From the NCBI GenBank assembly GCA_017984895.1, contig JAGNYO010000005.1, positions 1,010-65,009 of the forward strand: DNA of 64,000 nt, written 5' to 3'. The position numbers and the translations under genes were made by a program. Below the pieces are notes generated by a model that was given only the letters and a program-made list of their open reading frames with translations, had not been told where the DNA came from and did not search any database. Of the stretch, positions 24,311 to 46,570 are shown one piece after another (the stretch's first letter is position 1; each line of letters begins with the position of its first letter). The DNA comes from Sphingobium sp. (GTDB taxonomy: Bacteria; Pseudomonadota; Alphaproteobacteria; Sphingomonadales; Sphingomonadaceae).

Positions 24311-24315
24311 GCCTG

Positions 24316-31573: not shown

Positions 31574-31582
31574 TCCCCGCGA

Positions 31583-31879
31583 TTAACGCCTCGTGGCGAG
31601 CTTGCTTTCCACGAAGGCAGTGAGGGCACCAAACGTCTCGAAGGTGTCGCCATCCACATCGTCATCTTCTATGACAATGCCGAATCGATCCTCAATCTCG
31701 GTCAGAAGGGTGGCTACGGCCATCGAGTCCAGTTCCGGAATCGCACCGAACAGAGGCGTATCTGCCGAAAGCGCGCTGGCCGTGGCGCCCTTCAACGCCA
31801 GAACATCCCGCAATGTATCACGCAGGCGCACCTCTACTGACGGAGGAGCCACATTCTTTTCATGAGATTTATCACGCAT
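31583..31879 (-). CDS. Acyl carrier protein (exosortase-locus associated)
   Basis: 98 aa from ATG 31879 (MRDKSHEK..). Phosphopantetheine-site context ..FGAIPELDSMAVATLLTEIEDRFG.. The longer 162-aa track ORF would overlap the upstream GNAT gene. Confidence 0.8.
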   Translation of the reverse strand: MRDKSHEKNVAPPSVEVRLRDTLRDVLALKGATASALSADTPLFGAIPELDSMAVATLLTEIEDRFGIVIEDDDVDGDTFETFGALTAFVESKLATRR

Positions 31880-31895
31880 GTGCGCGCCTCTATCG

Positions 31896-32933
31896 TCAAG
31901 TAGGGCGGCGGACAAGCTGGGAAATGCGGGTTCTAAGAGCGGGGAGCCACTGGCCTGCCCTGCGCGGATCAAAGCAATCGAGCCGCAGCATCGGGCGTTC
32001 GCGCTCCATCCAATCCCGCTTGTAAGCGTTGCCGCCGGTGCCATAATCGATGCGGGAGACTTTCTCGACATCGATCATGTGGGCGAACATGTGATGACTG
32101 AGTAGGGTGCCTGGGGAGTGGGAATCTTCGGTGTTATCATGCGCGATCTTGTGGATGCAGGCGGTGTCGCCCTCGATCGTCCAGAGCTGGGCGGCGACAC
32201 CGTGCCCGTCATGGCGCGCGATACCGAGGCGCAGGTATCCGCGCGCGCCCGCCTCCTCCGCTACGGCACGGACCATAGCGGGATACGGCTCGGCGTTTTT
32301 CCAGCTCGCGGCATAGACGGCGCAATATTCCTGCCACAGTGGATCGTTCAGATTCCTATGAATGTCGTAGGCATAGCGGCCTGAACGTTGTTTCCGTCGG
32401 ACAGAGGCGCGTAATGCGCCTGGTCGCGTTCGCCAATAGGCCTCGAAATCTTGGCTTTCCAGATCAACAATATAATTGCCGCCCTGATCGGTCAGCAGTG
32501 CGATCCACCCCGCGCAGGCGAAGGCGCGGCGCAGCAATTCGGGCATAGCATCGCCTTCATTGTCGATCAGCGGATAGAGGCTGATTCGCCCCGCACTCCC
32601 GCGCAGGCCCGCCGCGATCTGAAGCACCAGCGCGTCGCGCACGGCCGCGTCCTCCACGCCCTCGAACACCGGCGCGTAGGAGAAGCTGTAATAGTTGGCG
32701 AGCGCGCTCAAACGGCCATCCTCGGCATCCCGCACCAGCGGTAGCACGGCGGATGCATCGCCGATCCGCGCCTGCGGGGTCAGCACTTCGCGTCCTGCAA
32801 AGCAATGCCGTGCCAGCATATCGAACCACGCACGCCGGTGAAAACCCCACGCGGCGCCAGTCGCGGCCCTACCATCCAGCTCCGCGGCGCTATCGTCTTT
32901 CCGTGGCGGGGAAATGTCTCTATCCCGGTTCAT
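31896..32933 (-). CDS. GNAT / FemAB-like (Acetyltransf_6, CelD-like) acyltransferase
   Basis: 345 aa from ATG 32933 (MNRDRD..; the track start at 32963 is TTG). ..YYSFSYAPV.., ..FEAYW..RPGALRASVRRK.., ..YLRLGI..G..VAAQLW..IHK.AHD..SPGTLL.. resemble the BioF2-like/CelD acetyltransferase family as I recall it. Confidence 0.65.
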   Translation of the reverse strand: MNRDRDISPPRKDDSAAELDGRAATGAAWGFHRRAWFDMLARHCFAGREVLTPQARIGDASAVLPLVRDAEDGRLSALANYYSFSYAPVFEGVEDAAVRDALVLQIAAGLRGSAGRISLYPLIDNEGDAMPELLRRAFACAGWIALLTDQGGNYIVDLESQDFEAYWRTRPGALRASVRRKQRSGRYAYDIHRNLNDPLWQEYCAVYAASWKNAEPYPAMVRAVAEEAGARGYLRLGIARHDGHGVAAQLWTIEGDTACIHKIAHDNTEDSHSPGTLLSHHMFAHMIDVEKVSRIDYGTGGNAYKRDWMERERPMLRLDCFDPRRAGQWLPALRTRISQLVRRPT

Positions 32934-32957
32934 GATGCGCCTGAATAGCGTATAGTC

Positions 32958-34511
32958 GTGCAAATGGGGTTAAGTGATTTGCCAGTGAAGCCAATAGACC
33001 ATTTGCCGATAGCGGGCGCGGCTGTGGCCGGAGGCGAAGCGCAGGCAATAGCGGGCAAGGCCGGGGCGCTGAGCTATGCCGCGCTCGAAGAGGCAGTGGG
33101 CCGCATGGCGGGCTGGCTGGCTTCGCATGGCTTCGCGCCGGGCGCGCGGATGGCGAGCTGGGTAAGCAAAGGTCGACTCGCCTGCATCATGCCATTGGCT
33201 GCGCCGCGCGCCGGGCTGATCCATGTGCCGATCAACCCGCTGTTGAAGCACGCGCAGGTGGCGCATATCCTTGCCGATAGCGGCGCGAGCTTGATAATCG
33301 GGACGGCGGCGCGGCTCGGCTCCCTGGAGCCAGGCGACGTGCCGGAGGCATGCCTCACAAGGGTCGAGGATGCGGCGCTGGCTGAGGCGCAGCACTGCAC
33401 CGCCATGCCGCCATCGGATGCTGAGCAGCATGCGCTCGCTGCCATCCTTTACACTTCCGGCTCCACCGGCAGACCCAAGGGCGTGATGCTGAGCCATGCG
33501 AATCTGTGGCTGGGCGCGGTATCTGTGGCGGAGTATCTGTGCTTCAGCCCGCAGGACCGTGTGCTCGGGGTGCTGCCGTTCAGCTTTGATTATGGCCAGA
33601 ACCAGATGCTCTCTACATGGGCAGCGGGGGGCACGGTGGTGCCGCTCGATTACCTCACCGCGCGCGATGTGGTGAAGGCGGTAGAACGGGAGGGCATCAC
33701 CACGCTCGCCGGTGTGCCGCCGCTCTGGGTGCAGCTTGTGGAGGCAGAGTGGCCACCCGAGACGGCGGCGCGGATGCGGCGCATCACCAATAGCGGCGGT
33801 GCGCTGACCAAGGCGCTGATCGGACGGTTGGCTGCGCTGTTCCCCAATGCAGACATCTATCCCATGTATGGCCTGACGGAGGCGTTTCGCTCCACTTATC
33901 TGCCGCCGGAGCTGGTCGCCACCCACCCCGAAAGCATGGGCCGCGCGATCCCCCATGCGGAGATTCTCGTCTGTCGCCCTGACGGCAGCCTGACAGCGGA
34001 TGACGAGCCGGGCGAGCTGGTGCATTGCGGGCCGCTGGTGGCGCAAGGCTATTGGAACGACCCGGTGCGCACCGCTGAGCGGTTTCGCCCCGCGCCGCCC
34101 TGCTCCAGCTATGACGGGCTGGCGGTGTGGTCTGGCGATACTGTGCGGCGGGATGAGGAAGGCTTGCTCACTTTCGTGGGGCGGGAGGACGCGATGATAA
34201 AATCCGCTGGCAACCGCATCAGCCCCACGGAGGTTGAGGAAGCGGCGCAATCGGTGGCGGGCGTGGCGGAGGCGGTGGCGCTCGGCGTGCCGGATGCGCG
34301 TCTGGGGCAGGCAGTGCTGCTGCTGGTGCGAGTGTTGAGCGACGATGCGGTGGACGCGCTGCGTGAAAGTTTGAAGAAGGAGCTGCCCAATTTCATGATG
34401 CCGTCTGAAATCCGCGTGGTGGAGGCCTTCCCGCGCAACGCCAATGGCAAGATAGACCGCGTGGCTTTGGCGCAGGAGTGGCGCGCGCTGGCCGGGGAGG
34501 GCGCGGAATGA
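32958..34511 (+). CDS. AMP-forming acyl-CoA/acyl-carrier ligase, exosortase A system-associated type
   Basis: 517 aa. AMP-binding motif ..ILYTSGSTGRPKGVMLSHANL.. A8/A10-like ..GDTVRRDEEGLLTFVGRED..IK.. and ..NANGKIDR.. Start ambiguous (GTG 32958, ATG 32964 or GTG 32985). Confidence 0.85.
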   Translation: MQMGLSDLPVKPIDHLPIAGAAVAGGEAQAIAGKAGALSYAALEEAVGRMAGWLASHGFAPGARMASWVSKGRLACIMPLAAPRAGLIHVPINPLLKHAQVAHILADSGASLIIGTAARLGSLEPGDVPEACLTRVEDAALAEAQHCTAMPPSDAEQHALAAILYTSGSTGRPKGVMLSHANLWLGAVSVAEYLCFSPQDRVLGVLPFSFDYGQNQMLSTWAAGGTVVPLDYLTARDVVKAVEREGITTLAGVPPLWVQLVEAEWPPETAARMRRITNSGGALTKALIGRLAALFPNADIYPMYGLTEAFRSTYLPPELVATHPESMGRAIPHAEILVCRPDGSLTADDEPGELVHCGPLVAQGYWNDPVRTAERFRPAPPCSSYDGLAVWSGDTVRRDEEGLLTFVGREDAMIKSAGNRISPTEVEEAAQSVAGVAEAVALGVPDARLGQAVLLLVRVLSDDAVDALRESLKKELPNFMMPSEIRVVEAFPRNANGKIDRVALAQEWRALAGEGAE

Positions 34512-35764
34512 GTATAGGCAGGGGCATGAAGCCGATGGGGCCGATCCCGCCAGGCTATGAGGCAGAGGAGGGGATGCTGCTGATCGGCGGGTGTGGCGCT
34601 GCGGCGCTGGTCGATGAAGCGGGCGATACACCGCTGTTCGTTTATGACATGGCGCTGGTGCGTAGGCGCGTGGCGATGCTGCGCGAGGCAATGCCGGACG
34701 GGCTGCACCTGCATTACGCGATCAAGGCCAACCCCTATCCGCCGCTGCTTGCCGCCATGACGGAGGTGGTCGACGGGTTCGATATCGCGTCTGGCGGCGA
34801 GTTGGCGCGTGCACTGGAGGCCGGGATGGGGGCGGAAGCGATCAGCTTTGCCGGGCCGGGCAAGCGTGACGACGAGCTGCGCGCCGCGATTCAGGCGGGC
34901 GTAACGATCAACCTCGAGTCGGAAGGCGAGGCGATGCGGGCGTTGCGGATTGGCGAGGTGGTGGGCGTCACCCCGCGCCTTGCTGTGCGTGTGAACCCGG
35001 ACTTTGACCTCAAGGGCTCCGGTATGAAGATGGGCGGCGGGGCGAAGCCGTTTGGGCTAGATGCGGACCGCGCCGCGGCGCTGGCGCGGGAAGTGATTGG
35101 CGCCGGGGCGGACTGGCGCGGGTGGCATATCTTTGCGGGCAGCCAGGCGCTCGATGCCGCCTCGATCATCGAAGCACAGGCGGCGACTTTGGCGCTGGCG
35201 GCGCGGCTGTCGGAGGAGGTAGGCGCGACTCCGCCGCTCGTGAACCTCGGCGGGGGTTTTGGCGTGCCCTATTTCCCTGGCGACTTGCCGCTGGATATCC
35301 GCGCGGTCGGCCTCGCATTGGAGGAGGGACTGACGCTGTTGCCCGATGCGCTGAAAGGCAGCGCCATCGCGCTGGAGCTGGGGCGCTATCTGGTGGCGGA
35401 GGCGGGCGTCTATCTCACGCGTGTTGTCGATGTGAAAGTCAGCCATGGCGAGCGGTTCGCGGTGGTGGACGGCGGCCTGCATCATCAACTGGCGGCGAGT
35501 GGCAACTTCGGCACGGTGGTGCGGCGCAATTATCCGCTCGTCATCGCCAACAAATATGGGCTGGCGGACGAAGCGCAGGAGCCGGTCAGCGTGGTGGGTT
35601 GCCTGTGCACCCCGCTGGACAAGCTGGGTGACAAGGTGATGCTGCCGCCCGTAGAGACGGGCGATCTGGTGGCGATCTTCCTCGCCGGTGCCTATGGCGC
35701 CAGCGCATCCCCCGCTGCCTTTCTGGGTCATGCGCCAGCGAATGAGATCCTCCTCGGCGAATAG
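34508..35764 (+). CDS. PLP-dependent decarboxylase (Orn/DAP/Arg decarboxylase fold), exosortase A system-associated type
   Basis: 418 aa from ATG 34508 (ATGA overlap with the ligase stop). ..HYAIKANP.. PLP-lysine motif, ..GGGFGVPY.., ..VGCLCTPLD.. are typical of DAP-decarboxylase-like enzymes. Confidence 0.85.
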   Translation: MSIGRGMKPMGPIPPGYEAEEGMLLIGGCGAAALVDEAGDTPLFVYDMALVRRRVAMLREAMPDGLHLHYAIKANPYPPLLAAMTEVVDGFDIASGGELARALEAGMGAEAISFAGPGKRDDELRAAIQAGVTINLESEGEAMRALRIGEVVGVTPRLAVRVNPDFDLKGSGMKMGGGAKPFGLDADRAAALAREVIGAGADWRGWHIFAGSQALDAASIIEAQAATLALAARLSEEVGATPPLVNLGGGFGVPYFPGDLPLDIRAVGLALEEGLTLLPDALKGSAIALELGRYLVAEAGVYLTRVVDVKVSHGERFAVVDGGLHHQLAASGNFGTVVRRNYPLVIANKYGLADEAQEPVSVVGCLCTPLDKLGDKVMLPPVETGDLVAIFLAGAYGASASPAAFLGHAPANEILLGE

Positions 35765-35916: not shown

Positions 35917-36561
35917 ATGATGCGCGCATCTTTAGCGAAACTAGTTATCGGCTTGGCGGCCGCATCGGCGCTGCTGACCGGATGCTCCAGCGGATCGTCC
36001 GACGCACAGCTTCCTCCCGCGAGCTTCGTCGGGACACAGGAAGGGCCGGGCGAGGAATATATCATCGGCCCGCTGGATGAGCTGACAATCTTTGTCTGGC
36101 GCAACCCCGAGCTGGGTTCGAAGGTGCAGGTGCGCCCTGATGGCCGCATCACCACGCCGCTGATCGCGGACATGCCCGCCGTCGGCAAGACGCCCAAGAT
36201 GCTATCCGAGGATATCAAGCTGGCGCTGTCCAGCTATATCCAGAATCCGCTGGTTTCTGTCATTGTCAACAATTTTTCCGGCACCTTCAGCCAGCAGATC
36301 CGCATCGTCGGCGCGACCGAAAAGCCCGCCTCGATCCCCTATCGCGCCAACATGACGCTGCTCGATGCGATGATCGCAGTGGGTGGCCTCTCGGAATATG
36401 CCGCTGGCAACCGCGCGCGCCTCGTCCGTTATGACAAGCCGAGCGGCAAGCAGAAGGAATATAAGGTGCGGATCAACGACCTGATCAAGCAGGGCGACAC
36501 CAAGGCGAATGTGCTGCTCGCACCGGGTGATGTCATCATCATCCCCGAGAGCATGTTCTAA
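35917..36561 (+). CDS. Polysaccharide export lipoprotein (Wza-like periplasmic domain; PEP-CTERM locus type)
   Basis: 214 aa. Lipobox ..LLTGC.. ..YIIGPLDELTIFVW..V.PDGRIT.PLI.. Poly_export motif. Soluble-ligand-binding repeat ..GDVIIIPE.. Confidence 0.85.
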   Translation: MMRASLAKLVIGLAAASALLTGCSSGSSDAQLPPASFVGTQEGPGEEYIIGPLDELTIFVWRNPELGSKVQVRPDGRITTPLIADMPAVGKTPKMLSEDIKLALSSYIQNPLVSVIVNNFSGTFSQQIRIVGATEKPASIPYRANMTLLDAMIAVGGLSEYAAGNRARLVRYDKPSGKQKEYKVRINDLIKQGDTKANVLLAPGDVIIIPESMF

Positions 36562-36587
36562 GTAATCGAGCGACTGGACGACCCAAT

Positions 36588-38105
36588 ATGCCGAGCCTCT
36601 ATGACGAATTGCTGATCGCGCTCCATGGCGTCTGGAACCGGCGCTGGCTGGCGCTGGCGGTCGCGTGGGGCGTGTGTATGGCCGGGTGGCTGGCGGTGTC
36701 GCTGATCCCGAATGCCTATGAATCCAAAGCCAAGGTGTTTGTCGCCACCCAGTCGATCATACAGGACAAGATCGGCATTTCTGCGGCGGAGCAGCAGAAA
36801 AATCTCGATGCCATCCGCCAGACTTTGGGCAGCGCCGCCAACCTTGAGAAGGTGGTGCGCGGCACGGATCTGGCCGGCACCGTGGCGTCCGAGGCGGATA
36901 TCGCCGCGCGGGCAGGGTCACTCAAGGACAAAATCTCTATCGTATCGAGCGAGAATAACCTGTTCGAGATCACGACGACGATTGCCGATAGCGGTAATTC
37001 AGACCGCGCCAATGCGCGCCTCGCCAACCAGATCACACAGAAGCTGCTCGATATTTTCCAGGAGGAGAACATCACCGGCAACCGCGACGAGACGAAGCAG
37101 GGCCTCGCTTTCCTCGATCAGCAGATCGCGCAGACCGGCAAGTCGTTGGCAGACGCGGAAAAAAAGCGGGTGGAGTTCAACCAGCAGTTCGCAGGGATTT
37201 TGCCCGGCGCGGGGTCTATCTTTGACCGGATGGCGGCGGCGCAGACCGAGCTGAACCAGATCGAGTCGCAACTGATGGGCGCGCAGAGCGCGCTGGCGGC
37301 GATGAATGGCCAACTCGCCGGAACGCCCGCCAATATTGCGGGCGGCGCAGGCGGCGGCACTCCTTCGGCTTTGGCGCAGGCGCAGGGCGAACTGGCTTCG
37401 GCCAAGGCGCGCGGCTGGACCGACAATCACCCCGATGTTATTGCGATGAAGCGCCAGATCGCGGCGATCAAGGCGGCGGGCGGCGGCGCGGCGAGCGCGG
37501 GCAGCAGTGCGCCCAACCCAGCCTATCTCTCGATCCGCTCGATGCAGGCGGAGCGTGCGGCGGCGGTGAACGCGTTGTCTGCGCGCAAGAGCCAGATCGA
37601 GGCTGATCTCGCTGCCGTGACGACGCGGCAGATCGCTGATCCCGGCCTTGCGTCCGAGGGCGAGCGGCTGGACCGGGATTATGATGTGCTGAAGGCGCAA
37701 TATGACAAGCTGCTCTCCGATCGGGGCGAGGTGCGCTTGCGCGGCGATGTGCAGAGCGAAACGAAGGGCGCTGCTTTTCGCATCATCGATCCGCCGAGTA
37801 TGCCTACAGCGCCAGCCTCGCCCAACCGGCCGATGCTGCTTGTCGGTGTGCTGATAGTCGGTATTGGCGCGGGCATCGGCGTGGCGTTCCTGCTGGGGCA
37901 GGTGCATCCCACTTTCCCGACAGCGGCGCGGCTGAGCAAGGCGGCGGGTCTGCCGGTGATCGGCACGGTGACGGAGACGCTGAATGCAGGCCAGATTGCG
38001 GAGCGCAAGCACAAGATGAAGCTGTTTGCCGGCGCGAGCGGAGCGTTGGGTGCGGCGTGTATGTTGCTCATCGTCGTCGAGTTCATTCAGCGCGGCATGG
38101 CATGA
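36588..38105 (+). CDS. Polysaccharide chain-length determinant (Wzz/PCP family; PEP-CTERM locus type)
   Basis: 505 aa. N-terminal TM, a long coiled-coil periplasmic region, and a C-terminal TM after a ..PP.P..P..P.. motif (..IDPPSMPTAPASPNRPMLL..). Confidence 0.85.
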   Translation: MPSLYDELLIALHGVWNRRWLALAVAWGVCMAGWLAVSLIPNAYESKAKVFVATQSIIQDKIGISAAEQQKNLDAIRQTLGSAANLEKVVRGTDLAGTVASEADIAARAGSLKDKISIVSSENNLFEITTTIADSGNSDRANARLANQITQKLLDIFQEENITGNRDETKQGLAFLDQQIAQTGKSLADAEKKRVEFNQQFAGILPGAGSIFDRMAAAQTELNQIESQLMGAQSALAAMNGQLAGTPANIAGGAGGGTPSALAQAQGELASAKARGWTDNHPDVIAMKRQIAAIKAAGGGAASAGSSAPNPAYLSIRSMQAERAAAVNALSARKSQIEADLAAVTTRQIADPGLASEGERLDRDYDVLKAQYDKLLSDRGEVRLRGDVQSETKGAAFRIIDPPSMPTAPASPNRPMLLVGVLIVGIGAGIGVAFLLGQVHPTFPTAARLSKAAGLPVIGTVTETLNAGQIAERKHKMKLFAGASGALGAACMLLIVVEFIQRGMA

Positions 38106-39079
38106 AGGGGACGCCAGATATGGGCAAAGAAAATTTCCCGCATCGTGACCGCAGCACCGCCGTCCCTGCCAGAGGGTTGCTGGAGCGCGCGTCGGACATA
38201 TTCGATTTTGGTGGGGCGCTGAAAGGGCAGGGCTTGCCGCCGCTGGCCGTGCCGCCGGAGCTGATCCCGCCGCCGCCGGTCTACACCGCGCCCGCCGCGC
38301 CGCCGACCGCGCCTGGCATTGCTCCCAAGCCTCGCGCTGCGGACTGGGCCGGGCCGGTGCAGGCGCTTGACCGCGAGGTGCTGGGCGAGAACGGCTTTAT
38401 CGTCCCCGGCGCGCCGATCACTGGCCTCGCCGAGGAGTTTCGCATCATCAAGCGCGAGTTGCAGGCGGGCCTGCGGCAGGATGGCGAGGCGCATGAGGAC
38501 GGCCGCGTCGTGCTGATCGCATCCGCGCATCCGGGCGATGGCAAGACCTTCTGCGCCGTCAATCTCGCGCTCTCGCTCGCTGCGGAAAGCCATGTCGAGG
38601 TGCTGCTGGTCGATGGCGATGTGGCGAAGCCTGATGCGCCGCGCCTGCTGGGGCTGGAGGCAGGCAAAGGCTTGCTCGATGTGCTGGCCAATCCGGCGTT
38701 GCGAGTAGAGGATTATGTGATCCGCACCGATGTGCCGGGCCTTGCCGTGCTGCCGGCCGGAACCGGCACCACGCGCGATGGCGAATTTCTTGCCTCGGCG
38801 CAGATGGACGCGGTGATCAAGGCGCTGGTTTCCGGGCGGCCGGAGCGGATCGTCATCATGGATTCTGCGCCGTTGCTCGCTGCGTCTGCCGCCTCGATCC
38901 TTGCTGCGCATGTGGGCCTGACGCTGCTGGTTGTGCGCGCAGACCGCACCAGCGAGACGGCGCTACGCGACGCGGCGGAGTTGCTCAACGGCTGCAAGAA
39001 TGTGCAGCTCATGCTCAACGGCGTCAAATTCTCCGCCAGCGGCCGCCGCTTCGGCACCTATTACGGCAGGGAGAGCTGA
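38102..39079 (+). CDS. BY-kinase-like P-loop ATPase (chain-length-determinant tyrosine kinase type)
   Basis: 325 aa from ATG 38102 (ATGA overlap). Walker A ..SAHPGDGKTF.., A' ..VLLVDGD.., B ..IVIMDSAP.. C-terminus ..GTYYGRES. Pro-rich N-terminal linker. Confidence 0.8.
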   Translation: MKGTPDMGKENFPHRDRSTAVPARGLLERASDIFDFGGALKGQGLPPLAVPPELIPPPPVYTAPAAPPTAPGIAPKPRAADWAGPVQALDREVLGENGFIVPGAPITGLAEEFRIIKRELQAGLRQDGEAHEDGRVVLIASAHPGDGKTFCAVNLALSLAAESHVEVLLVDGDVAKPDAPRLLGLEAGKGLLDVLANPALRVEDYVIRTDVPGLAVLPAGTGTTRDGEFLASAQMDAVIKALVSGRPERIVIMDSAPLLAASAASILAAHVGLTLLVVRADRTSETALRDAAELLNGCKNVQLMLNGVKFSASGRRFGTYYGRES

Positions 39080-39084
39080 GCCTC

Positions 39085-40680
39085 GTGCGCCGCTCGCTCC
39101 TATCCCTAACCGCGCTCACCGCCGCCGTGCTGCACCCCGCGCTGGCGCATGCGCGCACCGAGGTGCACCCCTATATCGAGGCGAGCCAGACTTTTGTCGC
39201 GAACCTGAAGGGCGGCGCGGAGGATGTGCTGACCTATACCTCGCTCGCTGCGGGCGTGGACGCTACGTTCCAGACCGCCCGCACTGAGGTGCGCGCAGAC
39301 GCGCGCTATGAGCACCAGTTCGGTTGGGGCAAACGCGCGCCCGACAGCGATATCCTCTCCGGCATGCTGCGCGGACGCTATGCCGTCATCCCCGACAAGC
39401 TCTCGATCGAAGGCGGCGCGCTTGCCACGCGAGTGCGCACCGATGGCCTGTCGAGCGCCAATGGCGGCACGCTGATCACGGCGGGCGACTCGGTTTCGCA
39501 GCTTTATTCGCTCTATGCCGGGCCGACGCTGACCACGCATGTGAACGACCTCTCCGTGAATGCCGCCTATCGCATCGGCTACACCCGGATTGAGGACGAC
39601 GTGAATCTAGCCGTGGGCGGCATTCCTGCGTTCGGCGTGTTTGACGAGAGCGTCTATCAGAGCGCGACGGCGTCCGTCGGCATGCAGCCCGGCCCGTTGC
39701 CCTTTGGCTGGGCTATTGGCGTGGGCTATGATCGCGAGGATGCCAGCGAACTCGATCAACGCTATCAGGACAAGTGGATACGCGGCGATGTTACCGTGCC
39801 TGTTTCCCCAACGCTCGCGCTGGTGGGCGGGGTCGGCTATGAAGACATCATAATCGACCAACGCGCCGCCCTTGTGGATGGCGCGGGCAACCCAGTGCTG
39901 GATGGCAAGGGGCGCCTGATTTCGGATACCTCCGTGCCGCGCCTCATCGCCTATGACACAGAAGGGCTGATCTGGGATGCGGGCGTGCTCTGGCGCCCCA
40001 GCCGCCGCACCAGCCTGGAGGCGCGGGTGGGCGAGCGTTATGACAGCATGCACTATATCGGCAGCTTCACCTGGCGCGCCAGCCCGCACAGCCTGTTCCA
40101 GATCGCCTATTTCGACCGGATCGACAGCTTTGGCCGCGCGCTACACGGCAACCTCGTAGCATTACCGACCGACTTCATCGCCGCGCGCAACCCGTTCAGC
40201 GGTGACCTTACCGGCTGCGTCAGCGGCCAGAGCGGCGGCACCTGCCTCAACAACACATTGGCGGCGATCAACGGCTCGAACTTTCGCCATCGCGGCATCG
40301 CGGCGCAATATGGCTGGACTGGGCGGCGCTGGAACTGGGGCGCTGCCGGCGGATGGTCGCAACGCAAGTTCCTCGCCCCACGCGGATCAATCTTCAGCAC
40401 CGTCAACGGCGCACACAGCGATTATTATTACGGGCAGGTCTTTGGTGGGCACAAGATCGACATCGCGTCGACGCTGGGCGCCAGCCTCTATGCCAATTAT
40501 CTCGATGCACCGGCGGGCGGCATAGATGTGAGCAATTACGGCGCATACACCACCTACAACCGGCAGTTCGGCCGGCATTTGAGCGCGCAGGCCTCGCTGG
40601 GGCTGGATGCGCTCGATACCACCGCCATAGAAACCATCGTCAACCTGCTGGGGCAGGTGGGCGTGCGCTATACGTTCTAG
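39085..40680 (+). CDS. Outer-membrane beta-barrel protein of the PEP-CTERM/EPS locus
   Basis: 531 aa, GTG start. Signal peptide ..ALAHA/RT. Alternating beta-strand pattern throughout. C-terminal ..VGVRYTF. Confidence 0.75.
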   Translation: MRRSLLSLTALTAAVLHPALAHARTEVHPYIEASQTFVANLKGGAEDVLTYTSLAAGVDATFQTARTEVRADARYEHQFGWGKRAPDSDILSGMLRGRYAVIPDKLSIEGGALATRVRTDGLSSANGGTLITAGDSVSQLYSLYAGPTLTTHVNDLSVNAAYRIGYTRIEDDVNLAVGGIPAFGVFDESVYQSATASVGMQPGPLPFGWAIGVGYDREDASELDQRYQDKWIRGDVTVPVSPTLALVGGVGYEDIIIDQRAALVDGAGNPVLDGKGRLISDTSVPRLIAYDTEGLIWDAGVLWRPSRRTSLEARVGERYDSMHYIGSFTWRASPHSLFQIAYFDRIDSFGRALHGNLVALPTDFIAARNPFSGDLTGCVSGQSGGTCLNNTLAAINGSNFRHRGIAAQYGWTGRRWNWGAAGGWSQRKFLAPRGSIFSTVNGAHSDYYYGQVFGGHKIDIASTLGASLYANYLDAPAGGIDVSNYGAYTTYNRQFGRHLSAQASLGLDALDTTAIETIVNLLGQVGVRYTF

Positions 40681-40708
40681 GGGCGCGGCCCCGTGGAGAG
40701 ACACGACG

Positions 40709-41902
40709 ATGTATGACCAGTTTTACGCGCTGAAGGGCCGCCCGTTTCAGCTGACGCCGGACCCGCATTTCTATTTCGAGAGCGGCACGCACCGCAAGGC
40801 ACTGTCCTACCTCGGTTATGGTCTGGCGCAGGGCGAAGGCTTCATCGTCATCACCGGCGAGATTGGCGCGGGTAAGACCACTTTGGTCGGCCATGTGATG
40901 TCGAGCATCGATCCGCACCGTTTGACGGCGGTGAAGATCGTCTCGACGCAGGTGGAGGGGGATGACCTGCTACGCCTCGTCGCGCAGCAGTTCGGCATTA
41001 CCGAGGAGCATCTGCCCAAGGCGCAACTACTCCAGCGGATCGAGGCGTTCTTGCATGCGCAGGCGCGCAAAGGACTGCGCACGCTGCTGATCGTCGATGA
41101 GGCGCAGGGGCTTTCGGTGTCCGCTATCGAGGAGCTGCGGATGCTGAGCAATTTTCAGCTCGGCGGGCAGGCGCTGCTCCAGATTTTTCTGCTCGGCCAG
41201 CCGGAATTCCGCGATCTGATGAATGCGCCGGAGCTTGAGCAATTGCGCCAGCGTGTAATCGCCACGCACCATCTTGAGCCGATGCTGGCGAACGAGGTGG
41301 AACCCTATATCCGCCACCGCCTGTCGCTGGTCGGGTGGACAAACAACCCGCATTTCACGGCGGATGCCTATGCAGCCATTTATGCGGCTACCGATGGCGT
41401 GCCACGCCGTATCAACGCGCTGATGAGCCGGGTGATGCTGTTGGGTGCGGTCGATCATCTGACCGAGATCGACGTGCAGGCAGTGCAGGCTGTGGCTGCC
41501 GATATGGGGCTGGATGACGGGGCGGCTGGGGTGGCCGAGGCCGTAGCGGTAGAGGAAACCACCGCGCAAGACACCGCGCTTGCCCCGGACGCCGAGCCGA
41601 TGCATATGGTGAACATGACCGAGGATGATGCGCCGGTCGGGGAGATGGTCGACGCGCCGGATGCCGCCCCGCTGGAGCTGCATCGCATCCGCGAGGAACT
41701 GGATGCCCTACGCCGGGTGATCAACCTGAGCGGTGATCGCGCGCCAGAGCAGCGGGCGCTGGGCGATAGGCTGGACGCCATCGCGGTGCGGGTCAATGGG
41801 CTTGAGGAGCGCAGCGGCGAGCAGGAAGCAGCGCTGCGCAAGGTGCTTAATCTGCTGGTTGACTGGGTGGAAAACGAAAACCCGGAAAGTCGTGCGGCCT
41901 GA
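40709..41902 (+). CDS. AAA-type ATPase (GspA/ExeA-like), XrtA/PEP-CTERM system-associated type
   Basis: 397 aa. ..FQLTPDP.FYF.S..H..AL..L.YG.. N-terminus. Walker A GEIGAGKTT. Walker B LLIVDEAQ. Acidic/coiled-coil C-terminal tail. Confidence 0.85.
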   Translation: MYDQFYALKGRPFQLTPDPHFYFESGTHRKALSYLGYGLAQGEGFIVITGEIGAGKTTLVGHVMSSIDPHRLTAVKIVSTQVEGDDLLRLVAQQFGITEEHLPKAQLLQRIEAFLHAQARKGLRTLLIVDEAQGLSVSAIEELRMLSNFQLGGQALLQIFLLGQPEFRDLMNAPELEQLRQRVIATHHLEPMLANEVEPYIRHRLSLVGWTNNPHFTADAYAAIYAATDGVPRRINALMSRVMLLGAVDHLTEIDVQAVQAVAADMGLDDGAAGVAEAVAVEETTAQDTALAPDAEPMHMVNMTEDDAPVGEMVDAPDAAPLELHRIREELDALRRVINLSGDRAPEQRALGDRLDAIAVRVNGLEERSGEQEAALRKVLNLLVDWVENENPESRAA

Positions 41903-41927
41903 GGGCGAATTCTAGGCAGGGGCGTTG

Positions 41928-42797
41928 ATGTCAAATATTATCAATGCTTTATCCATTGATGTTGAAGACTGGTTTCAGGTTGGTGCCTTTGAAACTACTT
42001 TCTCGCGCAGTGACTGGGCGGGCTGCGAATCCCGCGTTGTGGCCAACACGGAACGGCTGCTCGATCTGTTTGCGCGCCACAATGTGAAGGCGACATTTTT
42101 CACATTGGGTTGGGTGGCGGAGCGGCACCCGGACCTTATCCGTCGCATTGTGGCCGCCGGGCATGAGCTTGCGAGCCACGGCTATGACCATAGCCGCGTC
42201 TTTACCTTCACCCCCGAACAGTTCCGTGCGGATCTGCGCAAATCGCGTGCGCTGCTGGAGCAGGCGGGCGCGGTGCCAGTGCGCGGCTATCGCGCGCCGA
42301 GTTTTTCTATTGATGCACGCACGCCTTGGGCGCACATTATTCTCGCCGAAGAGGGCTATAGCTATTCCAGCAGTGTCGCGCCGGTGCGGCATGACCATTA
42401 TGGCTGGCCGGAGGCGCCGCGCTTTGCCTATCGCCCGCTTCCCGGTTCGCCGCTGGTCGAGCTACCCGTGACGACTGCGCGGCTGCTGGGCCGCACGATT
42501 GCGGCGGGCGGCGGCGGGTTTTTCCGGCTGATGCCCTATGATTTCACACGCTGGGCGGTGAAGCAGGTCAACAGTGCCTATCAACGCCCGGCGATCTTTT
42601 ATTTCCACCCGTGGGAGATCGATGCGGATCAGCCGCGCGTCGCCCATGCCCCGCTCAAATCCCGCCTGCGGCACTATACCAACCTCGCCACCACCGAGGC
42701 GAAGCTCGACCAGCTGATCGGCGCATTTCGCTGGGGCAGGGTGGATGATGTGCTCGCCGGTCAGGCGAAAGATGCTTCATACTGGCCCGCGGCATGA
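41928..42797 (+). CDS. Polysaccharide deacetylase (CE4), PEP-CTERM locus subfamily
   Basis: 289 aa from ATG 41928. ..ALSIDVEDWFQV.., ..ATFFTLGWVAERHP.., ..HELASHGYDH.. CE4 motifs. Confidence 0.88.
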   Translation: MSNIINALSIDVEDWFQVGAFETTFSRSDWAGCESRVVANTERLLDLFARHNVKATFFTLGWVAERHPDLIRRIVAAGHELASHGYDHSRVFTFTPEQFRADLRKSRALLEQAGAVPVRGYRAPSFSIDARTPWAHIILAEEGYSYSSSVAPVRHDHYGWPEAPRFAYRPLPGSPLVELPVTTARLLGRTIAAGGGGFFRLMPYDFTRWAVKQVNSAYQRPAIFYFHPWEIDADQPRVAHAPLKSRLRHYTNLATTEAKLDQLIGAFRWGRVDDVLAGQAKDASYWPAA

Positions 42798-43840
42798 TCG
42801 TATCGCGCGCCAATCTCGATGACGCCCGAACCGTGGCGGAACTGGAGGCGTGGATCGGCGCGCGGCCCGACTCTACGCCGTTTCACCGCCCGGCGTGGAT
42901 CAGCGCGGTGGCGCGCGGCACCGGGCAGGAGGCGATGATGCTGGTCTGCCGTCATGGCGGCGGGGACATCGCGGGCGTCCTGCCCTTGAACCTCATTCAT
43001 TCGCCGCTGTTTGGCCGGGCGCTGGTATCGAGCGGCTTTGCAGTCGATGGCGGGATATTGGCGGACGATGCGGCGGTGGCAGAGGCTCTCGCGCAGGAAT
43101 TCTGGCGGCTGGCGCAGGTGTTGAGCTGCCCCACGGCGGAGTTGCGCGGCGGAGCGTTGCCGCGTGAAGGCTGGACGCTCAAGAGCGGCGTCTATCTCAA
43201 CTTCGCCAAGGCGCTGGAGGCGGACGACGACGCGCAGCTGCTCGCTATTCCGCGCAAACATCGGGCCGAGGTGCGCAAGGGGTTGGACAATGGCCTTGAT
43301 ATGGAATTCGGGCGGGATCAGCGCCTGCTCGACATTCACTATCGCCTCTATGCCGAGAATGTGCACCGGCTCGGCACACCTGTTTTTCCTAAAGCAATGT
43401 TTGCCGAGGTGCTGGCCACCTTTGGTGCAGATGCTGACATTGCGCTGGTGAGCAAGGACGGCGCGCCGCTCACTACCATTTTCAGCCTCTATCACAACGG
43501 CGTCTGCATGCCCTATTGGCAGGGCGCAACGCTGGCGGCGCGCAAGATGCGTTCCAACGAGGCGGGCTATTTCCAGCTCATGAGTCATGCACGTGAGCGC
43601 GGTTGCACTCATTTCGATTTTGGGCGATCCAAGGTCGGCACCGGCCCTGCGGCGTGGAAAAAAACCTGGGGCTGGGAAGGCGAGCCGCTGACCTATGCCA
43701 CGCGCGCGGCGGAGGGCTACGACGCGCGGGATATCAACCCGCTCTCGCCGCAATATCAACGCAAGGTGGCGCTGTGGAAGAAGCTGCCGCTTCCCATAGC
43801 GAGCTTCATTGGGCCATATATCGCGCGCGGCCTGGGCTGA
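42794..43840 (+). CDS. FemAB-related acyl/aminoacyl-transferase, PEP-CTERM system-associated type
   Basis: 348 aa. ATGA overlap with the deacetylase stop. ..FHRPAW..G..LPL..SPLFGRALVS.GF..GGIL.. and ..FDFGRSK.GTG...FK..WG.. resemble the FemAB-related family as I recall it. Confidence 0.8.
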   Translation: MIVSRANLDDARTVAELEAWIGARPDSTPFHRPAWISAVARGTGQEAMMLVCRHGGGDIAGVLPLNLIHSPLFGRALVSSGFAVDGGILADDAAVAEALAQEFWRLAQVLSCPTAELRGGALPREGWTLKSGVYLNFAKALEADDDAQLLAIPRKHRAEVRKGLDNGLDMEFGRDQRLLDIHYRLYAENVHRLGTPVFPKAMFAEVLATFGADADIALVSKDGAPLTTIFSLYHNGVCMPYWQGATLAARKMRSNEAGYFQLMSHARERGCTHFDFGRSKVGTGPAAWKKTWGWEGEPLTYATRAAEGYDARDINPLSPQYQRKVALWKKLPLPIASFIGPYIARGLG

Positions 43841-43849
43841 GACGGCGTC

Positions 43850-45061
43850 ATGGCGGAGCTTGGTGAGATCCTGTTTCTGGTGCATCGCATCCCATTCCCG
43901 CCGGACCGGGGCGACAAGATCCGCTCGCATCACATATTCCATGCGCTGCGCGACATCGGCCCTGTGCATGTTGGCTGCTTTGCAGACGATGCTCGAGACA
44001 TGAGCTTTGCCGACGAGATGGCGATGCTCACCGCCAGCCAATGCGTGGTGCGGCGGGATCGGTCGCGCGCGGTGGCGGGAGTGAACGGGCTGCTGCGCCG
44101 CCAGCCAATGCTGGTCGCAATGTATGAAAGTGCAAGGATGCATCAATGGGTGCGGGAGGTGCTGGGAACCCGTCCAATCCGTGCCATTGTTGCCTACTCG
44201 GTACAGATGGCGCACTTCGTGCCGCATGACCTGCCCGAGGGGGTGCGCTTCATCATGGATTTCGTCGATTTCGACAGCGCGAAATATGCGGCCTATGGCG
44301 CAGTGCAGGGCGGCGTGATGGGCTGGGTCAACCGGCGCGAGGGGCGGGTGCTGATGCGCTTCGAGCGGGAGACGGCGCTGCGGGCGGATGTCTCTGCCTT
44401 CGTCAGCGCGGCGGAAGCGGCCATGTTCGTGCGCACTGCCGTGGTTGAGGGTGCGGATGTCCGGGCACTGGATAATGGCGTTGATTTGAAGTATTTCAAT
44501 GCACTACCGGATATTTCTCTCATTGATAATCAGCAGAAGCCACTGCTCGTTTTCACCGGCCAGATGGATTATCGCCCTAATATCGAAGCGGTGAAGAGCT
44601 TCGCGTGCGCGGTATTTCCGTCCATCCGTGCCACGCATCCCAACGCGCGCTTCGCTATTGTGGGCCGCAACCCCACGCCACAGGTGAGCGCGCTGGCCGA
44701 GCTGCCCGGCGTGGTCGTGACTGGCGGCGTGCCCGATGTGCGCGGCTGGCTGGCGGCGGCGGATGTGGTGGTCGCGCCGTTGAGGATCGCACGGGGCATC
44801 CAGAACAAAGTGTTGGAAGCGATGGCGATGGGCCGGCCGGTCGTTGCCTCGCCGCAAGCTGCCGAAGGTATCGATGCGCAAGACGGCGCGCATTTCGTAA
44901 TCGCCAACACACCGGCTGAGGAGGCGCAGGCGATAGTCGCGCTGCTGGCTGAGCCGGAGCGCGCTACGGCGCTTGGCAAAGCGGCGCGCGCGCGGATGGA
45001 AGCCCGCTATGAATGGGCAGCAACGCTCACGCCGTTGGCCGATATGGTGACGGGCGGATGA
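43850..45061 (+). CDS. GT4-type glycosyltransferase, PEP-CTERM/EpsH1 system-associated sugar transferase type
   Basis: 403 aa. N-terminal ..ILFLVHRIPFPPDRGDKIRSHH.. C-terminal ..GRNP..L..LPGV..TG.V.DVR.....ADV.V.PL..ARG.QNKVLEAMAMG.PVV.. GT-B motif. Confidence 0.85.
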   Translation: MAELGEILFLVHRIPFPPDRGDKIRSHHIFHALRDIGPVHVGCFADDARDMSFADEMAMLTASQCVVRRDRSRAVAGVNGLLRRQPMLVAMYESARMHQWVREVLGTRPIRAIVAYSVQMAHFVPHDLPEGVRFIMDFVDFDSAKYAAYGAVQGGVMGWVNRREGRVLMRFERETALRADVSAFVSAAEAAMFVRTAVVEGADVRALDNGVDLKYFNALPDISLIDNQQKPLLVFTGQMDYRPNIEAVKSFACAVFPSIRATHPNARFAIVGRNPTPQVSALAELPGVVVTGGVPDVRGWLAAADVVVAPLRIARGIQNKVLEAMAMGRPVVASPQAAEGIDAQDGAHFVIANTPAEEAQAIVALLAEPERATALGKAARARMEARYEWAATLTPLADMVTGG

Positions 45062-46557: not shown

Positions 46558-46570
46558 GGGCGAGAGCATC

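What the first reader, a model, noticed from the sequence alone, without database searches (positions are those of the whole stretch)
31583..35764. Carrier-protein cassette (ACP, FemAB-like GNAT, AMP-ligase, PLP decarboxylase) of unknown chemistry at the head of the exosortase locus
Two gene pairs diverge here. ACP plus an Acetyltransf_6/FemAB-like acyltransferase run on the minus strand. An AMP-forming ligase (YTSGSTGRPKGV) ATGA-coupled to an Orn/DAP-type PLP decarboxylase (HYAIKANP) runs on the plus strand. To my recollection the ligase and decarboxylase correspond to 'exosortase A system-associated' families defined only by genome context, with no biochemical characterisation. The logic resembles carrier-protein-dependent polymer decoration, such as Dlt-type D-alanylation. 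The ligase would load an acid or amino acid onto the ACP, the decarboxylase would generate an amine partner, and the FemAB-like enzymes (this one and 42794..43840) would transfer it to the polysaccharide, a lipid or the PEP-CTERM protein. The two alpha/beta hydrolases I recall as usual companions are absent here.
Basis: partly seen in the sequence, partly recalled or inferred. Interest (0 to 1): 0.6.

Follow-up and report, generated by a model that had tools for sequence, protein, structure and literature searches.

The report
Carrier-protein aminoacyl cassette beside exosortase locus
Four genes at the head of a Sphingobium slime-polysaccharide (exosortase A) locus most likely load aspartate or glutamate onto a small carrier protein, remove CO2 from it there and hand the resulting amino-acyl group to a sugar; the gene set is already named but has never been studied, and its chemistry can now be tested directly.

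Summary
ACP (31583-31879, -) and a PF13480 GNAT (31896-32933, -) diverge from a TIGR03098 ligase (32958-34511, +) and a TIGR03099 PLP decarboxylase (34508-35764, +). They sit directly upstream of a complete XrtA/PEP-CTERM EPS locus.

The interpretation needs one correction. The decarboxylase's closest solved relative is BtrK, the L-glutamyl-[ACP] decarboxylase. It shares BtrK-specific motifs, lacks DAP-decarboxylase substrate motifs, and the genome has its own LysA.

The ligase is a stand-alone NRPS-type adenylation enzyme, not a fatty-acid ligase. It carries the VinN-type signature: Asp235, an aromatic at 236, Ser301, and a shortened beta13-beta14 loop with Arg. So the likely chemistry is side-chain loading of Asp or Glu on the ACP, then decarboxylation on the carrier to beta-alanyl- or GABA-S-ACP. 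This is not production of a free amine.

The GNAT models as a FemX-like tandem GNAT. Larger relatives sit directly behind sugar aminotransferases with the same ACP and ligase, which suggests transfer to an amino sugar.

The two usual hydrolases are absent from the whole genome. That is genus-wide: 76 of 80 GNAT-anchored loci, almost all Sphingobium, lack them. All four genes are under purifying selection and co-occur with XrtA.

This is an ordinary member of a named but uncharacterised cassette. The mechanism is inferred, not shown.

The parts
31583..31879 (-). Dedicated acyl/aminoacyl carrier protein (98 aa), Ser attachment site in LDSMAV
   Evidence: PF00550 at 31.6 bits. Best PDB match is 2lki at 59 bits. 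An ACP is adjacent to the ligase/decarboxylase pair in most TIGR03099 loci from other families. It follows the GNAT in 78 of the 80 GNAT-anchored loci; the other two are short contigs that end before it. dN/dS is 0.10-0.22.
31896..32933 (-). FemX-like tandem-GNAT transferase (PF13480, 345 aa), 16 bp upstream of the ACP in the same operon
   Evidence: PF13480 at 69.5 bits with no NCBIfam hit. The AF2 model has pLDDT 89. Foldseek top hits are FemX, Sba18/Sbb17 and the MprF C-terminal domain. Orthologues always lie inside the cassette. dN/dS is 0.16-0.31.
32934..32957 (.). 24-bp gap between the divergent start codons of the GNAT and the ligase
   Evidence: Read directly from the sequence. The promoters must overlap coding sequence, or the GNAT start is misplaced. 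GNAT residues 1-27 are unconserved and low-confidence.
32958..34511 (+). Stand-alone adenylation enzyme (TIGR03098), predicted amino acid:ACP ligase
   Evidence: TIGR03098 at 632.9 bits against a cut-off of 592.35. The best single-domain PDB matches are NRPS adenylation domains and VinN (192 bits); fatty-acyl ligases score 130 bits or less. The specificity code is DYNGTSMRSK: D235, R330 and K517 are invariant across all 32 ligases compared, and the other positions vary only between similar residues. The beta13-beta14 loop is 1-2 residues shorter than in LgrA A1/A2.
34508..35764 (+). BtrK-like alanine-racemase-fold PLP decarboxylase (TIGR03099); alternative start at 34526
   Evidence: TIGR03099 at 558 bits against a cut-off of 478.45. 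BtrK is the best PDB match at 231 bits and 37.6% identity over 380 residues; the next match scores 143 bits. It carries the shared motifs LCTPxD and VDGG[LM]HHxxAAS and has no R-P motif. In the tree it lies apart from the clade holding LysA and SbnH.
35917..41902 (+). XrtA-type EPS export genes: export protein, chain-length determinant, Tyr autokinase, outer-membrane protein, ATPase
   Evidence: TIGR03027, TIGR03007 and TIGR03015 score above cut-off. TIGR03018 (194 bits against 231) and TIGR03016 (40 bits against 91) score below cut-off.
41925..43840 (+). XrtA polysaccharide deacetylase (41925-42797) and XrtA FemAB-family protein (42794-43840)
   Evidence: TIGR03006 at 423 bits and TIGR03019 at 320 bits. 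The FemAB protein is only remotely similar to the cassette GNAT.
43850..48463 (+). Glycosyltransferase stp1, XrtA-EpsI fusion and AsnB-like amidotransferase
   Evidence: TIGR03087, TIGR03109 plus TIGR02914, and TIGR03108 all score above cut-off.

Best explanation
The four genes form a carrier-protein pathway that builds a small omega-amino-acyl group and puts it on a glycan made by the adjacent XrtA EPS locus. The steps below are all inferred unless marked otherwise.

1. The genome's single AcpS-type phosphopantetheinyl transferase converts the ACP to its holo form.
2. The TIGR03098 enzyme is a stand-alone NRPS-like adenylation enzyme. It adenylates the side-chain carboxyl of an acidic amino acid and thioesterifies it to the ACP. 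L-Asp is most likely, L-Glu second. This rests on homology and active-site signature.
3. The TIGR03099 enzyme is a BtrK-type PLP decarboxylase. It removes the free alpha-carboxyl while the substrate is on the carrier, giving beta-alanyl-S-ACP (or gamma-aminobutyryl-S-ACP). This rests on homology and gene linkage.
4. The FemX-like tandem GNAT, translated from the same operon as the ACP, transfers this group to an amine. The acceptor is probably an amino sugar or deacetylated sugar of the EPS or its lipid- or nucleotide-linked precursor. This rests on fold and on the genomic context of relatives.

In Sphingobium the two alpha/beta hydrolases that accompany the cassette elsewhere were lost, and the GNAT-ACP pair was kept.
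For: Family membership:
- Searches place the ligase and decarboxylase above the TIGR03098 and TIGR03099 cut-offs.

Decarboxylase:
- BtrK is by far the best solved relative: 231 bits against 143 for SbnH and about 130 for DAP decarboxylases. Identity is 37.6% end to end.
- It shares LCTPxD and VDGG[LM]HHxxAAS with BtrK. DAP decarboxylases have CE[ST]GD and the substrate-binding R-P motif at those positions.
- The genome's real LysA is elsewhere, at C55, with TIGR01048 at 430 bits.
- In the tree, the TIGR03099 clade (support 99) stands with sub-cut-off relatives that also neighbour a ligase, often with an ACP. LysA, SbnH and lone decarboxylases form a separate clade (support 98).

Ligase:
- D235 and K517 of the NRPS code are invariant, and the 10-residue code is nearly constant across families.
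- Y236, S301, and a shortened beta13-beta14 loop with Arg reproduce the VinN hallmarks (PMC11253843; PMC7756342).

Precedents for loading and then decarboxylating on the carrier:
- BtrJ/I/K (PMC7857480), VinN/L/O (PMC11284099) and BolO/C/N (PMC7756342).

GNAT:
- The AF2 model has pLDDT 89. Top structural matches are FemX, Sba18/Sbb17 and MprF, all aminoacyl transferases.
- In 4 of 6 contexts of more distant relatives, the same ACP and AMP-ligase are present. The two- and three-module forms lie directly behind a DegT/EryC1 sugar aminotransferase.

Conservation:
- Synteny is identical in 80 loci.
- dN/dS is 0.10-0.31.
- XrtA is over cut-off in 25 of 27 genomes with the decarboxylase over cut-off, against 0 of 16 with sub-cut-off relatives.
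- The genome encodes at least 7 PEP-CTERM proteins.
Against: - No step has biochemical support for this family, and no paper on it was found.
- The position of BtrK in the tree is not firmly resolved. It has a long branch, and support for its nearest grouping is 88.
- Part of the ligase family (the DASAATMRSK variant) has Ala at 236 and Thr at 301, so the VinN signature is not complete everywhere.
- Every solved structural relative of the GNAT takes its aminoacyl group from tRNA, not from a carrier protein.
- Two of six distant GNAT relatives sit beside glycosyltransferases with no ACP.
- Asp versus Glu cannot be decided from sequence.
- The acceptor is unknown.
- Some lineages have the hydrolases and no GNAT (L046-L049), so the GNAT is not the universal off-loading enzyme.
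Confidence: 0.5

Rival explanations
1. The first three steps are the same, but the GNAT has a different role. It uses an aminoacyl-tRNA as donor and the free amine of the beta-alanyl- or GABA-S-ACP as acceptor. The result is a dipeptidyl-ACP, a protecting or extending step like VinM or BtrJ. Another enzyme then off-loads the product: the hydrolases in other lineages, or the TIGR03019 FemAB protein or something else here.
For: - All solved structural relatives of the GNAT are aminoacyl-tRNA-dependent.
- Both characterised pathways protect the amine of the omega-aminoacyl-ACP by aminoacylation before transfer (PMC11284099).
- The GNAT and the hydrolases coexist in many loci (L036, L043-45, L069-72, Rhizorhapis). 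That fits sequential roles rather than redundant ones.
Against: - Sphingobium has no hydrolases at all, so an off-loading enzyme would be missing.
- Multi-module GNAT relatives follow a sugar aminotransferase directly, which points to a sugar amine as the acceptor.
Confidence: 0.2
2. The ligase loads an acid onto the ACP. The decarboxylase separately makes a free amine from a free amino acid such as DAP, Orn or Lys. The GNAT then condenses the two.
For: - The decarboxylase belongs to the Orn/DAP/Arg decarboxylase fold and scores 226 bits on the lysA model.
- Relatives such as SbnH and FigC act on soluble conjugates (PMC7857480).
Against: - The lysA score is below its cut-off of 297.9, and the R-P and CE[ST]GD motifs are missing.
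- BtrK is much the closest characterised relative.
- The genome has its own LysA.
- The decarboxylase is tightly linked to a ligase across this clade and its sisters, often with an ACP as well, whereas lone decarboxylases fall in the other clade.
- The ligase's own pocket expects an amino group and a carboxylate on its substrate.
Confidence: 0.12
3. The database name is right. The ligase is an acyl-CoA or fatty-acyl-ACP ligase, and the cassette lipidates the EPS, a lipid or the PEP-CTERM proteins. The decarboxylase plays an unrelated role.
For: - NCBIfam calls TIGR03098 an acyl-CoA ligase.
- A long-chain fatty-acid-CoA ligase model scores 265 bits, about the same as the amino-acid adenylation domain model at 262 bits.
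Against: - Both of those scores are far below their cut-offs.
- Single-domain PDB matches rank peptide synthetase adenylation domains and VinN (212 and 192 bits) above FadD13 (130 bits).
- Asp235, which binds the substrate amino group, is invariant.
- The decarboxylase is fused into the same operon by an ATGA overlap.
Confidence: 0.08
4. The product is not a glycan decoration. It is a diffusible or membrane small molecule, for example a beta-alanine- or GABA-containing amide, that merely shares regulation with the EPS locus.
For: - BtrK-like, VinN-like and ACP trios occur in natural-product clusters (bolagladin, vicenistatin, butirosin; PMC7756342, PMC11284099).
- Sub-cut-off relatives occur without XrtA.
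Against: - There is no condensation, KS or NRPS partner in the window.
- The position at the head of the XrtA locus is strictly conserved in 80 loci.
- GNAT relatives associate with glycosyltransferases and a sugar aminotransferase.
Confidence: 0.1

Closest known systems
NCBIfam/TIGRFAMs 'exosortase A system-associated' set: TIGR03098 ligase, TIGR03099 decarboxylase, with TIGR03100/TIGR03101 hydrolases 1 and 2
   Same: The ligase and decarboxylase score above both curated cut-offs, are adjacent to each other, and lie at an XrtA locus. An ACP neighbours them as in most other loci.
   Different: Hydrolases 1 and 2 are missing from the whole genome. A PF13480 tandem GNAT with no NCBIfam model sits in front of the ACP instead. 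This is the state in 76 of the 80 GNAT-anchored loci, almost all Sphingobium. The family names imply acyl-CoA chemistry, which the active-site signature does not support.
BtrI/BtrJ/BtrK of butirosin side-chain synthesis (Bacillus circulans)
   Same: Both have a dedicated carrier protein and an alanine-racemase-fold PLP decarboxylase. The decarboxylase here is 37.6% identical to BtrK and shares motifs that DAP decarboxylases lack.
   Different: The loading enzyme here belongs to the ANL (adenylate-forming) superfamily, not the ATP-grasp class of BtrJ. There is no BtrH- or BtrG-type transferase or cyclotransferase. The setting is an EPS locus, not an aminoglycoside cluster.
VinN/VinL/VinO (vicenistatin) and BolO/BolC/BolN (bolagladin)
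   Same: An ANL adenylation enzyme activates the beta-carboxyl of an aspartate-type substrate onto a free-standing ACP, and a PLP decarboxylase then acts on the thioester. The ligase here has the VinN hallmarks: D235, an aromatic at 236, S301, and a short beta13-beta14 loop with a basic residue. VinN is its second-best single-domain PDB match (PMC11253843; PMC7756342).
   Different: The ligase shows only 192 bits of similarity to VinN. There is no PKS, NRPS or KAS III acceptor. A FemX-like GNAT stands in place of VinK, VinM and VinJ.
FemX/FemAB, Sba18/Sbb17 and the MprF C-terminal domain (aminoacyl-tRNA-dependent aminoacyl transferases)
   Same: They share the tandem-GNAT fold, with Foldseek probability 1.0 and TM-scores of 0.53-0.59 normalised to the query. 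They also share PF13480 and clan membership, and the role of adding an aminoacyl group to an amine or hydroxyl on a cell-envelope or sugar acceptor.
   Different: Sequence identity is 12-18%. There is no PF02388 or TIGR03019 match. The GNAT is genetically welded to a carrier protein, so the donor may be aminoacyl-S-ACP rather than aminoacyl-tRNA; this is untested.
Dlt D-alanylation (DltA/DltC/DltB/DltD) and AlmEFG glycine addition to lipid A
   Same: The general logic is shared: an ANL ligase loads an amino acid onto a small carrier protein for decoration of an envelope polymer.
   Different: The DltA models score 159-167 bits against cut-offs of 476-560. No MBOAT or DltD partner was seen among the annotated genes. 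Neither system has a decarboxylation step.

Membership tests
TIGR03098 (ligase, exosortase A system-associated) | Score at or above the curated cut-off of 592.35 bits | tested here: met
   632.9 bits over the full length.
TIGR03098 (ligase, exosortase A system-associated) | Lies next to a TIGR03099 decarboxylase in a genome with XrtA | tested here: met
   The ligase stop and a decarboxylase start overlap as ATGA. XrtA lies at 45013-46557.
TIGR03099 (PLP decarboxylase, exosortase A system-associated) | Score at or above the curated cut-off of 478.45 bits | tested here: met
   558 bits. It falls inside the clade with support 99 in the tree.
Full exosortase-A accessory cassette | Hydrolase 1 (TIGR03100) and hydrolase 2 (TIGR03101) present | tested here: not met
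   The best whole-genome matches score 27 and 27.5 bits against cut-offs of 168 and 203. The ACP stop lies 9 bp from the trxB stop.
BtrK-type carrier-protein-dependent decarboxylase | Closer to BtrK than to DAP, Orn or Arg decarboxylases, and carries the BtrK motifs | tested here: met
   231 bits against 143 or less for other PDB matches. The motifs LCTPxD and VDGG[LM]HHxxAAS are shared, and the R-P motif is lacking. The TIGR03099 clade is separate from the LysA/SbnH clade, but BtrK's exact branch is weakly supported.
BtrK-type carrier-protein-dependent decarboxylase | Decarboxylates an aminoacyl thioester on a carrier protein | not testable with these tools
   The only evidence is gene linkage to an ACP and a ligase.
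VinN-type side-chain-carboxyl-activating adenylation enzyme | D235, a bulky residue at 236, Ser at 301, and a shortened beta13-beta14 loop with a basic residue (PMC11253843) | tested here: met
   The code is DYNGTSMRSK. There is a 1-2-residue gap relative to LgrA A1/A2 at the loop. A sub-group of the family has A236 and T301, so the feature is not universal.
VinN-type side-chain-carboxyl-activating adenylation enzyme | Adenylates the beta- or gamma-carboxyl of Asp or Glu and loads a free-standing ACP | not testable with these tools
   Needs ATP-PPi exchange assays and intact-protein MS.
FemX/FemAB aminoacyl transferases | Tandem-GNAT fold | tested here: met
   AF2 model with pLDDT 89 and pTM 0.85. 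FemX, Sba18 and MprF are the top hits, with E-values from 1e-11 to 3e-10.
FemX/FemAB aminoacyl transferases | Sequence-family membership (PF02388, or TIGR03019 for the XrtA FemAB) | tested here: not met
   Only PF13480 matches, and there is no NCBIfam hit. Similarity to the window's TIGR03019 protein is marginal.
FemX/FemAB aminoacyl transferases | Aminoacyl-tRNA as donor | not testable with these tools
   The operon link to an ACP suggests another donor, but this is untested.
Diaminopimelate decarboxylase (LysA) | TIGR01048 at or above 297.9 bits, plus the DAP-binding motifs | tested here: not met
   226 bits. The CE[ST]GD and R-P motifs are replaced. A separate LysA in the genome scores 430 bits.
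Dlt system | A DltA equivalog together with DltB (MBOAT) and DltD partners | tested here: not met
   The DltA models score 159-167 bits, far below their cut-offs. None of the genes annotated between 27 and 51 kb is an MBOAT or DltD. No dedicated MBOAT search was run.

The most novel reading that the evidence does not exclude
The omega-amino-acyl group (beta-alanyl or GABA) that this cassette puts on an EPS sugar could be the long-sought nucleophile for exosortase A. XrtA would cleave the PEP-CTERM signal and join the protein's new C-terminus to this amine. That would mirror how sortase uses the FemAB-built cross-bridge amine of lipid II, and it would link PEP-CTERM proteins covalently to the polysaccharide. 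The reading would explain three things: why the cassette tracks XrtA so closely (25 of 27 against 0 of 16 genomes), why FemX-like enzymes and a deacetylase are fixed parts of the locus, and why both EPS and PEP-CTERM proteins are needed for flocs.
Probability: 0.12. Interest if true: 0.85.

Novelty: new variant of a known kind. Interest (0 to 1): 0.45.

Why it matters
TIGR03098 and TIGR03099 are annotated in very many genomes. In this sample, 27 of 401 Pseudomonadota have the decarboxylase above cut-off. Yet the families are defined only by context, one of them under a misleading 'acyl-CoA ligase' name.

Tying them to the Btr/Vin/Bol chemistry gives a concrete hypothesis testable by mass spectrometry. 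It predicts a beta-alanyl or GABA amide substituent on XrtA-type exopolysaccharides. These are the matrix polymers of activated-sludge flocs and many environmental biofilms.

Sphingobium offers the simplest version of the pathway, with four genes and no hydrolases, and so is a good system for reconstitution. If the GNAT really takes its substrate from a carrier protein, that would extend the FemX/MprF fold beyond tRNA donors.

Tried and rejected
- Literature: searches for the family accessions and names, and for PEP-CTERM/floc papers that mention the ligase, decarboxylase or ACP, found nothing on the cassette. The VinN structure paper (PMC4223343) is not held. VinN residues were taken from two other papers instead.
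- PDB sequence search with the GNAT gave no hit. A fold search was needed.
- First-pass ORF picking in high-GC loci mis-called strands. It was replaced by stop-to-stop ORFs scored with phmmer/HMM.
- VinN could not be shown residue by residue, because five LgrA entries fill the alignment slots. Loop length was judged against LgrA A1/A2 instead.
- The search for related loci patterns derived from the GNAT alignment reached only Sphingobium and close relatives. Wider GNAT contexts came from representative searches and contig look-ups.
- Rejected: that the decarboxylase is the housekeeping LysA.
- Rejected: that the loss of the hydrolases is special to this genome. It is genus-wide.
- Rejected: that the GNAT is a close paralogue of the locus's TIGR03019 FemAB protein.

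Full report
**Observation.**
- On the minus strand lie a 98-aa carrier protein (31583-31879; PF00550; Ser in LDSMAV) and, 16 bp upstream of it, a 345-aa PF13480 GNAT (31896-32933). No NCBIfam model matches the GNAT.
- On the plus strand, 24 bp from the GNAT start, lies the ligase (32958-34511). It scores 632.9 bits on TIGR03098 against a cut-off of 592.35.
- The decarboxylase follows. It scores 558 bits on TIGR03099 against a cut-off of 478.45.
- The ATGA overlap at 34508-34511 exists. Gene callers elsewhere prefer the ATG at 34526.
- Downstream is a complete XrtA locus (35917-48463): export protein, chain-length determinant, Tyr kinase, outer-membrane protein, ATPase, deacetylase, FemAB (TIGR03019), glycosyltransferase stp1, an XrtA-EpsI fusion and an AsnB-like amidotransferase.
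- Upstream are housekeeping glmU, glmS and trxB.
- The genome encodes at least seven PEP-CTERM proteins.

**The decarboxylase.** Its best solved relative is BtrK, the L-glutamyl-[BtrI carrier protein] decarboxylase.
- BtrK scores 231 bits, against 143 for SbnH and about 130 or less for DAP decarboxylases.
- Identity to BtrK is 37.6% over 380 residues.
- It shares LCTPxD and VDGG[LM]HHxxAAS with BtrK. At those positions the genome's own LysA has CETGD and the R-P motif (DAAMNDLARPAM).
- That LysA lies on another contig and scores 430 bits on TIGR01048. The cassette enzyme scores 226 bits, below the cut-off of 297.9.
- I built a tree of 45 sequences. The TIGR03099 clade has support 99. It groups with sub-cut-off relatives and BtrK, and stands apart from a clade with support 98 that holds LysA, SbnH and decarboxylases with no ligase nearby.
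- BtrK's own branch is long and its nearest grouping has only 88 support.
- The context map supports the split. Members on the BtrK side almost always sit beside an ANL ligase, often with an ACP. Members on the LysA side do not.

**The ligase.** Its name says acyl-CoA ligase, but the evidence points to an amino-acid adenylation enzyme.
- The best single-domain PDB matches are a peptide-synthetase adenylation domain (212 bits) and VinN (192 bits). FadD13-type enzymes score about 130 bits.
- I anchored the ten specificity positions on the conserved motifs and read DYNGTSMRSK. The code is nearly constant in 32 ligases from many families. D235, R330 and K517 are invariant.
- According to PMC11253843 and PMC7756342, VinN activates the beta-carboxyl of 3-methylaspartate using D230 (GrsA 235), F231 (236), S299 (301), and K330/R331 in a beta13-beta14 loop that is one residue shorter than in alpha-amino-acid domains.
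- The window's enzyme has D, Y, S and an Arg in that loop. The loop is one to two residues shorter than in LgrA A1 and A2.
- A sub-group of the family has A236 and T301, so the match is not universal.
- VinN/VinL/VinO, BtrJ/BtrI/BtrK and the proposed BolO/BolC/BolN all load an acidic amino acid by its side-chain carboxyl and decarboxylate it on the carrier (PMC11284099, PMC7857480, PMC7756342).
- I therefore read the cassette as making beta-alanyl-S-ACP from Asp, or GABA-S-ACP from Glu. This is inference from homology. The choice between Asp and Glu is open.

**The GNAT.** It has no sequence match in the PDB.
- An AlphaFold model from a 40-sequence alignment is confident, with pLDDT 89 and pTM 0.85.
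- The fold is a tandem GNAT. The nearest structures are Weissella FemX, the aminoacyl-tRNA-dependent peptide synthases Sba18/Sbb17 (Sba18 solved with the amino-sugar acceptor streptothrisamine), and the MprF synthase domain.
- The family is large: 1020 clusters at 50% identity score E <= 1e-30. Many are two- or three-module fusions.
- I looked up six contexts.
  - Four contain the same ACP and AMP-ligase (P0243, P0270 and P0281), or an unannotated 83-aa ORF in the ACP's position plus a hydrolase on a contig where no ligase is called (P0274).
  - The 752-aa and 1083-aa forms start 4-5 bp after a DegT/EryC1 sugar aminotransferase.
  - The other two sit only beside glycosyltransferases.
- This supports a sugar amine as acceptor.
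- The donor could be ACP or tRNA. Every solved relative uses tRNA, so that question stays open and defines the main rival explanation.

**Conservation.**
- TIGR03099 is over cut-off in 27 of 401 sampled Pseudomonadota.
- XrtA is over cut-off in 25 of those 27, and in 0 of 16 genomes with only sub-cut-off decarboxylases.
- In 20-kb contexts, the ligase and decarboxylase are adjacent nearly everywhere, and the ACP is present in most loci.
- Hydrolases 2 and 1 follow the ACP in many families and in all ten other Sphingomonadaceae genomes sampled.
- The GNAT orthologue occurs in five of those Sphingomonadaceae genera and sporadically in two other families.
- Two Sphingomonadaceae genera have the hydrolases but no GNAT.
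- Seen from the GNAT, 80 loci were fetched, all Sphingobium or close Sphingomonadaceae relatives. In 76 of them no hydrolase follows the GNAT-ACP pair. Wherever the contig extends far enough, the decarboxylase and ligase diverge from GNAT-ACP at the head of the XrtA locus, and trxB converges on the ACP in all but a few.
- The four Rhizorhapis loci keep the hydrolases.
- The window's own genome has no hydrolase 1 or 2 anywhere.
- So the hydrolase-less, GNAT-bearing form is an old, stable state in Sphingobium, not a peculiarity of this genome.
- dN/dS against five relatives is 0.10-0.31 for all four genes, similar to the neighbouring export gene and trxB.

**Comparison with what is known.**
- The ligase and decarboxylase are members of two named NCBIfam families. 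Those families are defined by context only. I found no paper that addresses them, and Haft's 2006 PEP-CTERM paper does not mention them.
- The proposed chemistry is that of the Btr, Vin and Bol pathways. It differs from them in the loading enzyme (compared with Btr), in the transferase, and in the setting at an EPS locus.
- Earlier agents of this scan reached similar BtrK-type readings on other genomes. I treat that as agreement between notes, not as independent evidence. Every point used here was re-derived.

**Verdict.** The finding is real, and its interpretation is right in outline but wrong about the decarboxylase's substrate. The window holds an ordinary, well-conserved member of a widespread, named but unstudied cassette. 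The value lies in a specific, cheap biochemical test, and in Sphingobium offering the minimal four-gene version. All mechanistic steps are inferred.

Noticed in passing
window 23855-26464: An 'HPr-rel-A system' lies a few kb upstream of the cassette. It comprises HprK-related kinase A (24606-25472, TIGR04352 at 245.6 bits) and its PqqD-family peptide chaperone (24316-24621, TIGR04353 at 69.5 bits). Two ORFs with no family match flank them (23855-24310 and 25454-26464). The function is unknown.
   Followed up: partly
own genome C67:4569-9270: A second small ACP (C67:9010-9270) sits beside another ANL ligase (C67:6886-8424). That ligase's best NCBIfam match is again TIGR03098, but at only 148 bits. 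A LuxC-like acyl reductase homologue lies nearby (C67:4569-5912). This looks like a separate carrier-protein module of unknown role.
   Followed up: partly
own genome C33:29009-29785 and C33:15575-16342: A second exosortase-family gene lies on the same contig as one of the seven PEP-CTERM proteins. It scores 132.8 bits on the XrtA model, below the cut-off.
   Followed up: no
L158:6408-11252, L159, L160:169-4861: In soil-metagenome contigs, two-module (752 aa) and three-module (1083 aa) fusions of the PF13480 unit start directly after a DegT/EryC1 sugar aminotransferase. An ACP, two alpha/beta hydrolases, an AMP-ligase and glycosyltransferases surround them. This is a larger version of the same cassette.
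   Followed up: partly
L033:11178-14366: In one genome of another family, a 1062-aa ORF with no NCBIfam match is inserted between the decarboxylase and the ligase. A related 794-aa ORF lies beside the cassette in L037.
   Followed up: no
window 32934-32957: Only 24 bp separate the divergent start codons of the GNAT and the ligase. Either both promoters lie inside coding sequence, or the GNAT starts further in. Its first 27 residues are unconserved and modelled with pLDDT below 50.
   Followed up: no
L035, L036, L033, L051: In several other families the AsnB-like XrtA amidotransferase (TIGR03108 type) lies directly beside the decarboxylase. This hints that it works on the same product.
   Followed up: no
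window 31573-31583: The ACP stop and the convergent trxB stop are 9 bp apart, with no room for a separate terminator. Rhizorhapis has hydrolases 2 and 1 after the ACP, and in one of those loci (L112) they lie exactly here, between the ACP and trxB.
   Followed up: partly
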